Source: Eledone cirrhosa (Eukaryota). From it: a stretch of DNA of 64,000 nt. The stretch covers positions 252,960,001 to 253,024,000 of the forward strand of contig OZ024743.1 in NCBI GenBank assembly GCA_964016885.1. The letters are read 5' to 3'. The position numbers and the translations under genes were made by a program. The notes under the pieces are model-generated. The model did no database searches, was not told the DNA's origin, and was given only the letters and a program-made list of their open reading frames with translations. Position 1 is the first letter of the stretch; each line of letters starts with the position of its first letter. Positions 9,788 through 30,712 of this stretch are shown here, one piece after another.

Positions 9788-9881
9788 TACACGCAGAAAT
9801 GCCCATTTGTACCGTCCTGTATTGTCCTGTACTGTCCTTAATGTCTACTTTATGTGAACCCTTGTGGTTAATAAAGAAAAC
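9788..9881 (+). mobile_element. Tx1 family-A 3' tail fragment (extreme 5' truncation) followed by (ATT)n
   Basis: Nearly identical to 18474-18568. Confidence 0.85.
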
Positions 9882-9910
<29 letters not shown>

Positions 9911-9912
<2 letters not shown>

Positions 9913-10098
9913 GCGGTGATTGACAGTACCGGTAGAGGGTCGGACGCCATGCTTTGAGGCATTGAGTTACGGCCGTTGCCATTCTGAGTTCAAATCCCGC
10001 CGAGGTTAACTTTGCCTTTCATCCTGACGGGGTCGATAAAATAAAGTACCAGTAATGCACTGGGTATTTGCTGTCCTTGTGCCAATAGTAGGAACAAT
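9911..10098 (+). mobile_element. tRNA-derived SINE (family S1)
   Basis: B-box-like GAGTTCAAATCCC, core TTAACTTTGCCTTTCATCCT..GGGGTCGATAAAATAAAGTACCAGT, (ATT)n tail; about 12 copies in window. Confidence 0.85.
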
Positions 10099-10173
10099 TA
10101 TTATTATTATTATTATTATTATTGTTATTTGAGTCTCAGTCATTGATGTTATTTAACTGGAAAGTTTGTTAAA

Positions 10174-10625
10174 ATGCCACTACCTGCAGCCTCAGATATT
10201 CAGGACGTATCAGAGGGTTCTTGCTGTTCCCAGCAAGCATGCCTTTCGAAGTGTTCCAAAAAGCGGGGCGGGACCAATTTTCTTTAACCATCCCTGGAAA
10301 CTCGTTGAGATAGTACCTAGTGCGCCTATGACAATCGGGACCACTTTGACTTCATGGCAGTTCCAAATCCTTTTGACCTCCCACTTTAAGTCCTGATATC
10401 GTTTAATTTTCTCCCTCTCCTTCTCTTGCATTCTCGTGTCGAATGGGCAAGCCACATCCACAATCAGGCACAATCTTTTTTTCCTTGTCCAAACCACCAG
10501 GTTAGGTCTATTGTGTGCCAGTTTCTTGTCCGTCTGTATCCTAAAATCCCACAGCATCTTCACCTGATCGTTTTCTATCACCGACTCTGTCTTATGCTCA
10601 TACCACTTCTCAGAATGTGGTAAAT
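10174..10625 (-). mobile_element. R4/Dong-type non-LTR retrotransposon 3' fragment (REL endonuclease)
   Basis: ORF 10210-10581 LWDFRIQTDKKLAHNRPNLVV...IVDVACPFD...KEREKIKRYQDLKWEV...VVPIVIGALG. Confidence 0.8.
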
Positions 10626-10632
10626 TGTTTAC

Positions 10633-12536
10633 TGCTGAAATAGGATCCGAACAAGTGGGATAACATAGATAATTTCAGGCCCATAACTCTTCTAAACACA
10701 GAGTTCAAGATTTTGCCCAAGGTGCAAGCAAAAGGTTGGCGCTTGTCGTTGGTGGTTTGGTAGGAGAGGCGTAGACATGCGCCATTCCCGACAGATCAAT
10801 CCACGACAACCTCCACCTCATGCGATACATCGTGGAGCGGGTAGCTAGGGAATCTGGCACGGGTGGGTCCTTGATCAATTTAGATCAGTCGAAAGCTTTC
10901 GAGAGTGTCGACCATCGTTATCTGGCGGCAGTCTTGAGGGCGGCTGGCTTTGGCCCCGTCTTCAGAGGCTGGATCGTTGCCATGCACAGCGACATCTGCT
11001 CTGTGGTGAGAGTGAACGGTCACATTTCGGAACCGTTCAACATCATACGCTCGGACCGCCAAGGATGTCGCCTCTCGTCCCTCTTGTTCGTATGGCCATT
11101 ACTGCACAAACTGGAGACGTTGAGGGGGTCCCGCGCGAACTAGGATGCGGAAGATCCGTGTCAGCATATGCGGACGATATCACCGTAGTGGTGTAGAACG
11201 CCAAACACATCGAGGCGATCGGTACTATACTAAGAGAATACGAAGCGGTGACAGGAGCAATGATCAACCAGGAAAAGTCAGTGTACCTGCAGCTCGGCAC
11301 CTGGAGAGGCAGGTCCATGCCATCCAACAGTGTCGTCGGGCGCTGGACGGACGAACAGGTTAAATTGCTAGGGGTCTGGTTCGGTCCAGACCTCCAGACC
11401 GACAAAAACTGGGACGAGGTGACGAGCAGGGTGGCTTCTCTCACCCAGAAATGGGCGGAGAGGAAGCTGTCCCTGAAAGGTCGAGCGGAGGTGGCTAACG
11501 CGTTCATCGCGTCCGTCATCTACTACCGCCTGACCGTCGTACCTTGTCCTAAGCCCCGCCTGACTCCGCTGAAGCGTTTGCTCTTTCGCTTTTTGTGGAA
11601 GGGCCGCGCTCCGATGGTCAGGCGGTCCATCTGCTGTCAACACCCGCTACGTGGAGGGCTGGGCTTGCCGTGGCTGATGATGCGCAGACACGCGCTCAGC
11701 CTACGACATCTCCACCTCTTCCTCGACGGTGATCAGGTGTGGTCGCCGTTTGCTAGACACGTCTTTCCCCAGCTCGTGTCCTTGACGGAGCTGCAGTCCT
11801 GGGTCAAGCGAAGACCTAGAGGGAGCGCTTGGAGACTGGAATGTCTTCAGGCGCTCACAGCCCTCGACCAATCGGGCAATGTGATCGGTGGAAACTCCAC
11901 CTCGGCGTTCTATAGAGGATTAGTGGAGGGGAAGAGCGACGACGTACTTGGAGAAACTCTCGGCGTCGACGAAAATCAACTAGCCAATCTCTTCGGATGA
12001 ACTTTCGGGCCGGGCCTATGAACAACTTCCAGAAATCCCTGGCCTGGCAGTGCTACCGCGGAGCTTTGCCAGTTCGGGATAAACTCTACAGGCATGGAGG
12101 TGCCGTCAGCCGGGCATGTCCGAGATGCGCGCAGGGCGACGAAACCGTCCTGCACGCACTCGTCCAGTGTCCGAGCATTGCTGACTTGAGGGTTTATGTC
12201 GAACACCTGCTGTCACGTGTAAGACGGATCCAGCTATCAGCTGAGTCCATCGTGAGGATTGCCCCGCCCTCTTCCTTTAGCCGGGAAGGGCAGGCAGTTT
12301 TTATCTGTCTGGTGGACACGTTTGAAAGGGCTGAAGACGAGCACTTACCTCTTCGGTGATGCCCTGATTAACTTTTTCAAATTTCATTTGAAAAGGAAAA
12401 TCAGGGTAGAGAGGGAAGTGCTCTCTTCCCAGCATTTTGTTGAAAGATGGGTGAGAGAAGCAAGTATGGCCCGGGTGAATGGGCCTACTCTGAGTAGTGT
12501 CTGCAAATTAAAGGTGGAAAACTGGGAGAGGGCACT
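10633..12536 (+). mobile_element. Tx1 family-A copy A0, 5'-truncated and lacking most of the 3'UTR, disrupted ORF2
   Basis: Close match to 16392-18335; LDQSKAF, YADD and CPRC..H..C motifs with stops and frameshifts; ends GAGGGCACT then (ATT)n. Confidence 0.9.
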
Positions 12537-29300: not shown

Positions 29301-29737
29301 GAAGTGCTGTCAGACAAACCTGCCCGAGATGCGCGCAGAGCGACGAAACCGTTCTGCACGCACTCGTCCAGTGTCCGTGCATTGCTGACTTGTGGGGTTA
29401 TGTCGAACAGCTATTGTCGCGTGTAGAACGGATCCGGCTATCGTCCGAGTCCATAGTGAAGATTGACCCGCCGCCTTCTTTTGGTCAGGAAGGGCAGGCA
29501 ATTTTCCCCTGCCTGGTGGCAGTAGCGAAAGAGGTTGCATGGTGGACCAGGTTGAAAGGACTGAAGACAGACACTTTTCTCTTCGGCCAATCCCTCATCA
29601 ACTTCTTCAAGTTTCACTTGGAAAGGAAGGTGAGGGTGGAGAGAGAAGTGCTGCCCCCCAGTACATTTACTGAAAGGTGGGTGAATGTGGCGAGAATGGC
29701 CCGCGTGAGTGGGCCTACTCTGATCATGCGCCTGTAG
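26318..29737 (+). CDS. Tx1 family-C ORF2p (APE-RT-zinc finger), 1139 codons, open except TAA at codon 8 (26339-26341)
   Basis: ATG GCC ATA AGA GTA GGA AGT TAA AAT GTT CGT GGC, then in-frame 1118-aa ORF with all EN and RT motifs (GDWN, YSDH, RQGCPLS, YADD). Confidence 0.9.
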
Positions 29738-30005
29738 GCTGGTGAATTCGAGAAGGAGAGGGGTGCCCTTCTCGGGTGCCCTAGGAGCGTCGGGTGGCTC
29801 AGGACTGGTGGAGTGCTTGAGTCAACCCTGGGTGGTGATCCCTCTTATTGGGGAACTTTCATTGTTGTATTTTTATTGTTATTTTGTTTTTTGTTATTTA
29901 TACTTACTCGATCTCTATGTAAACCCCCACTGTCCCTGTCTATTGTGTTGTCCCCTATATGTCGGCCCTTGTGGCCAATAAATGAAATCATTATTATTAT
30001 TATTG

Positions 30006-30191
30006 GCGGTGAATTGGCAGTATTGGTAGAGAGTCGGACGCCATGGTTTGACGCATAGAGTTACGGCCCTTGCCATTCTGAGTTCAAATCCCGCCGAGGT
30101 TAACTTTGCCTTTCATCCTTACGGGGTCGATAAAATAAAGTACCAGTAATGCACTGGGTAATTGCTGGCCTTGTGCCTAAAGTAGAAACAA
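30006..30191 (+). mobile_element. SINE S1 copy
   Basis: Matches 9911-10098. Confidence 0.85.
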
Positions 30192-30251
30192 TTCTTCTTC
30201 TTATTATTATAGTTGCATTTGTCTTGCTTTATGTTCATACGACTTATCACC

Positions 30252-30508
30252 ATGCCACTACCTGCAGCCTCAGATATTCAGGACATATCGGAGGGTTCTT
30301 GCTGTTCCCAGCAAGCATGCCTTTTGAAGCGTTCCAAAAAGCGTGAAGGGGACAATTTTCTTTAACCATCCCTGGAAATTTTTGAGATAGTACCTAGTGC
30401 GCCTATGACAATCGGGACCACTTTGACTTCATGGCAGTTCCAAATCCTTTTTACCTCCCACTTTAAGTCCTGGTATCGGTTAATTTTCTCCTTCTCTTTC
30501 TCTTGCAC
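30252..30508 (-). mobile_element. R4/Dong-type 3' fragment, same family as 10174-10430
   Basis: ATGCCACTACCTGCAGCCTCAGATATTCAGGAC...GAGATAGTACCTAGTGCGCCTATGACAATCGGGACC shared. Confidence 0.85.
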
Positions 30509-30519
30509 TAATTATTATT

Positions 30520-30712
30520 AATATTATTATTATTATTAACACTATTTTTACAAATATGCAACTTAACAATAACCTGCATATCCGCCATTGACAATGCATA
30601 TAAGGCTGAAACCGGTATCGTATATAAATTAATGTTTTAATATTTCACTGAAAGAATCTCTTCAACATTTTCTATTAAAAACACTTTCTTTCTTTCTACT
30701 ATTTGTTTTTAT
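30520..30712 (+). repeat. Right arm of the stack-enclosing inverted repeat
   Basis: Reverse complement of 9407-9589. Confidence 0.9.

What the first reader, a model, noticed from the sequence alone, without database searches (positions are those of the whole stretch)
9880..30540. Multi-family retrotransposon 'landing pad': three different full-length Tx1 families stacked head-to-tail in one (ATT)n microsatellite
Seen: A0, A, B and C lie in the same orientation, each separated only by 15-26 bp of (ATT)n (12537-12551, 18569-18594, 24155-24175, 29990-30005). Their ORF1s and 5'UTRs are strongly divergent, so this is not tandem duplication. The minus copy at 39204-40793 also has (AAT)n at both junctions, including its truncated 5' end, which argues for a target rather than only a tail. 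Known: Tx1-clade APE elements are often sequence-specific (Kibi TC repeats, Koshi TTC repeats, Keno U2 snRNA) and Dong targets TAA repeats. Inference: a radiation of ATT-specific Tx1 families that regenerate their target and grow self-perpetuating arrays.
Basis: partly seen in the sequence, partly recalled or inferred. Interest (0 to 1): 0.72.

Follow-up and report, generated by a model that had tools for sequence, protein, structure and literature searches.

The report
Retrotransposons stacking in ATT repeats
Several related jumping genes in this probably octopod genome sit in short ATT repeats and have piled up one after another into a 21-kb stack at one such repeat, likely because they insert into the repeat and also carry a few copies of it on their front end, which leaves a fresh landing site for the next arrival.

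Summary
Confirmed, with corrections. Three full-length but broken L1-group (Tx1-like) LINEs (A, B, C) lie head-to-tail, joined by (ATT)5-8. A0 is an older A copy joined directly to an opposite-strand Dong/R4 fragment. The 20.7-kb stack, with two SINEs and two Dong ends, fills the short ATT site of a palindromic MITE whose other copies show that site.

Genome-wide, 2282 of 2350 A 5' ends follow in-phase TTATTATT. Truncated copies have ATT flanks in only 12 of 29 (position-ordered) to 31 of 56 cases, against a 3-4% background; others join Dong. ATT is therefore a real target, but not a strict one for truncated copies.

A sister family in the window uses (ATCT)n. In 3 of its 6 full-length copies the 5' repeat pad is absent from the duplicated target, so the pad likely travels with the element, as upstream target sequence does for R2.

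Microsatellite-targeting Tx1 families are known. I found no ATT or ATCT case in 9 paper searches; Repbase could not be checked. The scan already noted this system on many other windows of this genome. New variant of a known kind.

The parts
9364..9407 (.). (TA)22 flanking the host MITE
9408..9786 (.). Host palindromic MITE-like element: left arm, hairpin centre near 9690, inner part of the right arm up to the insertion site
   Evidence: (1555 candidates)
9787..9881 (+). 93-bp 3' end of an A-type LINE at the left edge of the MITE's ATT site (no ATT at its 5' side)
9882..9909 (+). (ATT)9
9912..10096 (+). SINE (about 188 bp; 3' end resembles the LINE 3' end)
10097..10129 (+). (ATT)11
10130..10633 (-). 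3' end of a Dong/R4-type element with the restriction-like endonuclease motif
10631..12536 (+). A0: older (93%) A copy, 5'-truncated, joined directly to Dong, last 233 bp missing
12537..12551 (+). (ATT)5
12552..18568 (+). Subfamily A, full length, 99% to the nearest genomic copy. ORF1 12768-14849 is open; ORF2 from 14885 has a frameshift and a stop; GGTAAGT at 14845
18569..18594 (+). (ATT)8 with one interruption
18595..24154 (+). Subfamily B, full length but decayed (about 91% to the best 3'-end matches), deletion of about 300 bp in ORF2; GGTAAGT at 20751
24155..24175 (+). (ATT)7
24176..29989 (+). Subfamily C, full length, 99% to the nearest copy. ORF2 is open for 1131 aa after an early stop; ORF1 is broken; GGTAAGT at 26280
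29990..30004 (+). (ATT)5
30005..30192 (+). SINE
30209..30510 (-). 3' end of a second Dong/R4-type element (different 3' UTR from the left one)
30511..30538 (+). (ATT)9 with one interruption, at the right edge of the MITE site
30539..30707 (.). Outer right arm of the host MITE (89% to the reverse complement of 9408-9592), followed by (TA)n at 30747-30994
33690..34434 (-). 5'-truncated copy of sister family D (65-67% nt to A/B/C), flanked by (ATCT)n on both sides
39205..40793 (-). 5'-truncated A-type copy (91%) with (AAT)8 at 39180-39204 and (AAT)7 at 40794-40814

Best explanation
These are L1-group (Tx1-like) LINE subfamilies that likely insert by target-primed reverse transcription into (ATT)n tracts in one fixed orientation, and the 21-kb stack is a pile of separate insertions at one short ATT site in a MITE. 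Shown: the ATT site exists in other MITE copies; the units differ in family and age; full-length 5' ends follow ATT in phase; Dong/R4 elements face the other way in the same tracts. Inferred: the APE endonuclease nicks the AAT strand at ATTAT, and the second nick falls about 12-19 nt further on. Also inferred: the full-length RNA starts with a few AUU units from the donor site, so the cDNA anneals to the upstream target and gives a precise in-phase joint. Truncated cDNAs lack that pad and join by microhomology, often losing upstream DNA. Each insertion leaves ATT on both sides, which the next LINE, SINE or Dong copy uses. Local duplication adds to some arrays.
For: Full-length 5' ends: 2282 of 2350 exact A 5' ends are preceded by TTATTATT. 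79 of 81 sampled full-length starts of A, A2, B, C and C2 end in phase ATT. 3' ends: 30 of 30 A and 30 of 30 C 3' ends found without ATT in the query are followed by ATT. Truncated 5' ends: 25 of 56 by rule, 31 of 56 after manual reading, 12 of 29 in position-ordered samples, against a 3-4% background. 8 of the 25 remaining join an opposite-strand Dong directly. Empty site: the mirror arm of the MITE predicts (ATT)3-5 exactly here, and two other MITE copies carry a C element (L120) or a SINE (L204) at that site. Downstream neighbours of 70 A 3' ends: 24 Dong tail-to-tail, 16 LINE 5' ends in the same orientation, none opposite; Dong control 1 of 522. The LINE is younger than the downstream SINE in 17 of 19 cases, and Dong neighbours are both older and younger. 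The SINE has a duplication of at least 10 nt that is not pure ATT in 19 of 28 copies (12-19 nt in 18 of them), 15 of them starting ATTAT. LINE-LINE spacers are never under 15-18 nt, and 71 of 74 are multiples of 3. Element-borne pad: in sister family D, L489 and L499 have a 15-nt target duplication followed by a 11-13 nt (ATCT) pad before the element's first base, and L510 has a pad that its 3' flank lacks. The other 3 of 6 full-length D copies lie in long ATCT tracts and are uninformative. R2 shows the same pattern of uniform versus variable 5' joints (PMC3774820, passages).
Against: 11 of 29 position-ordered truncated copies have neither ATT nor Dong at the 5' side, and no duplication was found for them. 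For the ATT families, no duplication lies outside the ATT runs (2 of 94 against 1.07 in shuffles). The element-borne pad is therefore shown only for family D and extrapolated to A-C. One C copy (L476) fits a plain 18-nt duplication that includes an interruption. No RNA, no nicking assay. Whether the SINE is mobilised by these LINEs is inferred from a short shared 3' end and shared orientation (29 same, 1 opposite). Samples keyed on exact 3' patterns required three ATT units. Some arrays contain identical units (three on C28) or a repeated LINE+Dong block (C1), which points to local duplication.
Confidence: 0.62

Rival explanations
1. Endonuclease-only targeting. Both nicks fall in phase inside the ATT tract, the 5' ATT of full-length copies is simply a 15-18 bp target-site duplication plus the retained tract, and the RNA carries no 5' pad.
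For: The spacer floor of 15-18 nt matches the SINE duplication length. L476 duplicates an interrupted 18-mer. No duplication lies outside the ATT runs in 94 full-length copies.
Against: SINE duplications have lengths in all phases and no sequence rule at the second nick, yet 97% of A joints are in phase. Truncated copies should then keep ATT as often as full-length ones and do not. Family D shows a pad outside the duplication.
Confidence: 0.25
2. No real target. ATT is only a terminal repeat carried at both ends, the LINEs insert at AT-rich sites, and Dong (a known TAA targeter) plus selection against insertions elsewhere create the clustering.
For: 11 of 29 truncated copies have unrelated 5' flanks. 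Dong neighbours are younger than the LINE in 10 of 37 cases. Family D also inserts at (AT)n and at single ATCT sites.
Against: The MITE site is used three times independently. Truncated ATT flanks are more than ten times background. There is no external duplication in 94 copies. LINE-on-LINE stacks are all in one orientation. Older SINEs lie downstream in 17 of 19 cases.
Confidence: 0.07
3. The stack arose by tandem duplication, by new copies finishing on a neighbour's 5' half, or by misassembly.
For: Identical units occur in one array and a duplicated LINE+Dong block in another. 2 of 9 adjacent A pairs are near-identical in the 5' part only.
Against: Window units belong to families 73-82% identical and of different ages (99, 91, 99, 93%). 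The two SINE+Dong ends have different Dong 3' UTRs. There is no N in the array. Both MITE arms are in place. 7 of 9 adjacent pairs are no closer than dispersed copies.
Confidence: 0.06

Closest known systems
Kibi (TC)n, Koshi (TTC)n and crocodilian (TTCC)n/(TTTC)n Tx1 families (PMC4494074, passages and section 15; PMC3812793, passages)
   Same: APE-type two-ORF LINEs of the L1 group that sit in a microsatellite in a fixed orientation
   Different: The targets here are (ATT)n and, in the sister family, (ATCT)n, which these texts do not list for Tx1. Relationship to Kibi and Koshi was not tested because no named sequence was available.
Dong, DongAg, DongBg (R4 clade, TAA repeats; PMC3812793, passages)
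   Same: Same microsatellite; Dong-type elements with the RLE motif occupy the same tracts here
   Different: Different endonuclease class, single ORF, opposite strand
SART1 and TRAS1 of Bombyx mori (PMC7265360, passages)
   Same: Two LINE families enter one simple repeat in opposite directions; SART1 needs at least three repeat units
   Different: There, both are R1-clade APE elements at telomeres. Here an APE and an RLE element share dispersed microsatellites at thousands of loci.
R2 elements whose RNA keeps upstream target sequence (PMC3774820, passages)
   Same: Uniform 5' joints when target sequence rides on the RNA, variable joints with deletions when it does not, and occasional duplicated upstream target
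   Different: R2 is an RLE element in 28S rDNA, with an HDV-like ribozyme setting the 5' end. No such ribozyme family was hit here, and how the pad is made is unknown.
SaTar MULE arrays of guayule and rice (PMC5907723, abstract)
   Same: Non-nested linear arrays of unrelated elements assembled by microsatellite targeting
   Different: DNA transposons in plants, small and non-autonomous

Membership tests
L1 group of non-LTR retrotransposons | ORF2 with N-terminal APE, RT and C-terminal zinc-binding domain | tested here: met
   Pfam Exo_endo_phos, RVT_1, zf-RVT; best solved relative is human L1 ORF2p at E 8e-56, against R2 at 4e-21
L1 group of non-LTR retrotransposons | Two ORFs, 5' truncation, no LTRs | tested here: met
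   Intact copy L066: ORF1 695 aa, ORF2 1139 aa; 18 of 55 sampled full-length A and 2 of 8 C copies have both ORFs open
Tx1 clade | ORF1 of type I (RRM plus CCHC knuckle) rather than Transposase_22 | tested here: inconclusive
   One conserved CCHC knuckle. The model (pLDDT 64.5) matches tandem-RRM proteins only at E 0.008-0.1. No Pfam ORF1 family was hit. Type definition from PMC5203782, passages.
Tx1 clade | RT phylogeny groups with named Tx1 families (Tx1L, Keno, Kibi, Koshi) | tested here: inconclusive
   No named reference was available. The families form one clade with an Argonauta protein (FastTree 1.0) and group only weakly (0.53-0.82) with unnamed elements flanked by U2 or U1 snRNA sequence.
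Target-specific Tx1 family (criterion of PMC4494074: one sequence type in more than 20% of flanks) | Target at both ends, including 5'-truncated copies | tested here: met
   97% of full-length A 5' ends; 41-55% of truncated 5' ends against 3-4% background
Target-specific Tx1 family | Endonuclease nicks the target specifically | not testable with these tools
   Needs an in vitro assay; the loop before the SYLD motif is nearly the same in A, B, C and in ATCT-flanked D
Kibi/Koshi lineage | Pyrimidine-only target (TC, TTC, TTCC, TTTC) | tested here: not met
   Flanks are ATT or ATCT; one truncated copy lies in (TTC)n
R4/Dong clade (for the minus-strand fragments) | RT followed by a C-terminal restriction-like endonuclease; TAA repeats after the 3' end | tested here: met
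   RLE-type motif in P0001 (motif assignment recalled); RVT_1 in long frames of L314 and L337; TAA at both ends

The most novel reading that the evidence does not exclude
These LINEs are aimed largely by their own RNA. A weakly specific endonuclease (cutting at AT[TC][AT]T-like sites) is steered to one microsatellite by repeat units carried at both RNA ends. Every full-length insertion plants a new pad, and a lineage can switch from (ATT)n to (ATCT)n by changing its terminal repeats with almost no change in the endonuclease loop.
Probability: 0.3. Interest if true: 0.75.

Novelty: new variant of a known kind. Interest (0 to 1): 0.5.

Why it matters
It adds two microsatellite targets, (ATT)n and (ATCT)n, for Tx1-like LINEs. 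It gives a young, abundant natural series for asking whether targeting lies in the endonuclease or in RNA-DNA pairing: at least 3120 A and 1080 C exact 3' ends, with many intact copies. Family D branches with C (UFBoot 98) yet uses another repeat, so swaps of the endonuclease or of the terminal repeats can test this directly. It also explains how an APE element, an RLE element and a SINE build ordered arrays of tens of kilobases in cephalopod genomes, where L1-Tx1 and Dong-R4 are reported as recently active (PMC13282606) without target analysis in the text read.

Tried and rejected
No RNA holder was listed for 14300-15400, so there is no evidence on expression or splicing. Laying contigs of public runs on the array listed no piece bridging a junction and is uninformative on assembly. 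Splicing at the conserved GGTAAGT: no spliced genomic copy among 77 sites. A duplication hidden outside the ATT runs of A-C: 2 of 94 against 1.07 in shuffles. Neighbour-templated 5' halves: 2 of 9 adjacent pairs, so not the rule in my sample. Metagenome relatives were only 25-39% identical and gave no ATT-flanked relative among the 35 of 80 inspected (two have TAA runs). Cluster look-up gave no informative names. The protein Atlas was not available for ORF1. Rfam gave only hairpin look-alikes below gathering score in 9300-31000. I did not assign the SINE to a superfamily: PMC4824008 passages give no basis. Rows dropped before the truncated-copy count: 19 of 75 (11 artefacts of the deletion in the B reference, 8 internal rearrangements or deletions). 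Kojima and Fujiwara 2004 is not held, the supplements of PMC4494074 were not readable, and Repbase and the Zenodo library of PMC13282606 were not seen. Any of these may already record this target.
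Full report
Observation. The spacers and orientations are as described. A (12552-18568), B (18595-24154) and C (24176-29989) are full-length two-ORF LINEs. ORF2 carries APE, RT and zf-RVT domains, and the closest solved relative is human L1 ORF2p. The closest named protein is from Argonauta hians, 67% identical, so the host is probably an octopod (inference). 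All three window copies are broken, but intact copies exist elsewhere: L066 has ORF1 of 695 aa and ORF2 of 1139 aa, and both ORFs are open in 18 of 55 full-length A copies sampled. A0 is a 93% A copy, not a fourth family.

The stack runs from 9787 to 30538. Besides the LINEs it holds a 93-bp A 3' end, two SINEs, and two minus-strand 3' ends of Dong/R4-type elements. It sits in the right arm of a palindromic MITE-like repeat between (TA)n runs. The window's own left arm and the arms of other copies predict a short (ATT)3-5 at exactly this position. Eight right arms among 19 other copies, mostly from one cluster, show only a degenerate version. Two further copies carry a C element (L120) or a SINE (L204) at the same site.

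Genome-wide junctions. Exact 3' ends followed by three ATT units number 3120 for A, 1080 for C and 378 for B. The top 30 A and top 30 C 3' ends, found without ATT in the query, are all followed by ATT. Of 2350 exact A 5' ends, 2282 are preceded by TTATTATT in phase. Five 5' types (A, A2, B, C, C2) occur; A2 joins a different 5' UTR and ORF1 to an A-type ORF2 that is 98% identical. Of 81 sampled full-length starts, 79 follow ATT in phase.

Truncated copies are weaker. After dropping 19 of 75 rows, 25 of 56 pass the ATT rule and 31 pass after manual reading. In position-ordered samples the split is 12 ATT, 6 Dong-joined and 11 other of 29. Background is 3-4%.

Shared pad and order of arrival. 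Downstream of 70 A 3' ends lie 24 Dong ends tail-to-tail, 16 LINE starts in the same orientation, 9 SINEs in the same orientation, and no LINE in the opposite orientation; the Dong control is 1 of 522. The LINE is closer to its kin than the downstream SINE is to its kin in 17 of 19 cases. For Dong neighbours the LINE is the younger in 17 and the older in 10 of 37, so each lands on the other's tract. This age proxy uses small samples. In three long arrays, 7 of 9 adjacent A pairs are no closer than dispersed copies, and 2 share only a 5' part. One array has identical units and one repeats a LINE+Dong block, so local duplication also occurs. In the window, young A and C (99%) alternate with older B and A0 (about 91-93%).

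Mechanism. The SINE (21,478 exact heads, some in tandem head repeats) has a non-ATT duplication of at least 10 nt in 19 of 28 copies with both ends, 12-19 nt long in 18, and 15 begin with ATTAT. Its 3' end resembles the LINE 3' end. If it borrows these enzymes (inferred), the first nick is at ATTAT and the second has no sequence rule. LINE-LINE spacers have a floor of 15-18 nt, matching that stagger. A free second nick cannot, however, explain 97% in-phase joints.

A sister family supplies the clue. The fragment at 33690-34434 (minus) is flanked by (ATCT)n. Of 30 genomic copies, 17 have at least two ATCT units at the 3' end, and most of the rest start with ATCT, ATAT or ACCT. The family branches with C and C2 (UFBoot 98) and has nearly the same endonuclease loop. 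Six full-length 5' ends were found among 30 copies. L489 and L499 show a 15-nt duplication and then an 11-13 nt ATCT pad before the first base, and L510 has a pad that its 3' flank lacks; three lie in long tracts. The pad therefore travels with the element in family D. For A-C no duplication lies outside the ATT runs, which says their sites are tracts but leaves the pad unproven. The window's A0|(ATT)5|A joint, where 233 bp of A0 are gone but a pure pad remains, fits a pad and also fits a later deletion. The pattern parallels R2, where upstream target on the RNA gives uniform 5' joints and its absence gives variable joints with deletions (PMC3774820, passages).

Comparison with print. Known microsatellite targets for Tx1 are TC, TTC, TTCC and TTTC (PMC4494074, passages and section 15). 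A review lists TAA only for Dong (PMC3812793, passages). SART1 and TRAS1 enter telomeric repeats in opposite directions (PMC7265360, passages). Plant SaTar elements form microsatellite-targeted arrays (PMC5907723, abstract). The O. vulgaris annotation lists active L1-Tx1 and Dong-R4 families with no target analysis (PMC13282606, parts 1-2 of 3). PMC4640811, PMC10294476, PMC4824008 and PMC5203782 were read as passages. Nine searches showed no ATT- or ATCT-targeting Tx1 family. Repbase, the 2004 paper and unseen supplements may hold one.

Earlier notes. The scan has noted the ATT/Dong system and the ATCT sister on other windows of this genome. I had reached the ATT/Dong/SINE reading before looking. 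The notes prompted the neighbour-copy test and made me examine the sister fragment.

Verdict. Real, genome-wide, and a variant of a known kind. What this window adds is the MITE empty-site control and the evidence for an element-borne 5' pad.

Noticed in passing
window 14845, 20751, 26280; also A2, C2 and D copies: A perfect splice-donor-like GGTAAGT followed by a pyrimidine-rich stretch lies 35-45 nt before the ORF2 ATG in all six subfamilies. It is read in different ORF1 frames, so it is conserved at the nucleotide level. No spliced genomic copy was found among 77 sites.
   Followed up: partly
first 45 nt of A, B, C, C2 and D: A GTAAG motif recurs about 30 nt after the 5' end, although the 5' UTRs are otherwise unrelated; possibly a promoter or U1-binding element.
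   Followed up: no
window 33690-34434 (-), loci L481-L530: Sister family D, flanked by (ATCT)n, 1935 candidates in the genome; stacks head-to-tail as well.
   Followed up: yes
L077 (A2), L333 (C2): Modular swaps: A2 has a different 5' UTR and ORF1 on an A-type ORF2, joined about 45 nt before the ORF1 end; C2 has a B-like 5' UTR on a C-like body.
   Followed up: partly
G000:C3:316.82-316.86 Mb, C1:55.42-55.46 Mb, C28:122.86-122.90 Mb: Head-to-tail arrays of five or more near-intact A copies; the C1 array repeats an identical 809-bp Dong piece twice.
   Followed up: partly
L227: Short C2-type copy with an inverted 5' piece, like twin priming in L1.
   Followed up: no
L357-L359, L369-L380: The 45-nt head of the SINE forms long tandem arrays on C1.
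   Followed up: no
L383, L399, L427 (U2); L397, L385, L392 (U1); metagenome contigs: Distant relatives are followed by U2 or U1 snRNA sequence (Rfam hits for L383, L399, L427, L397; the others read by eye).
   Followed up: partly
window 533-1218, 2531-4110, 51357-59577, 59586-59785: A 173-bp and a 76-bp tandem repeat, an 8.2-kb AT-rich dinucleotide array, and a 200-N gap; a second hairpin MITE at 31073-31292.
   Followed up: no
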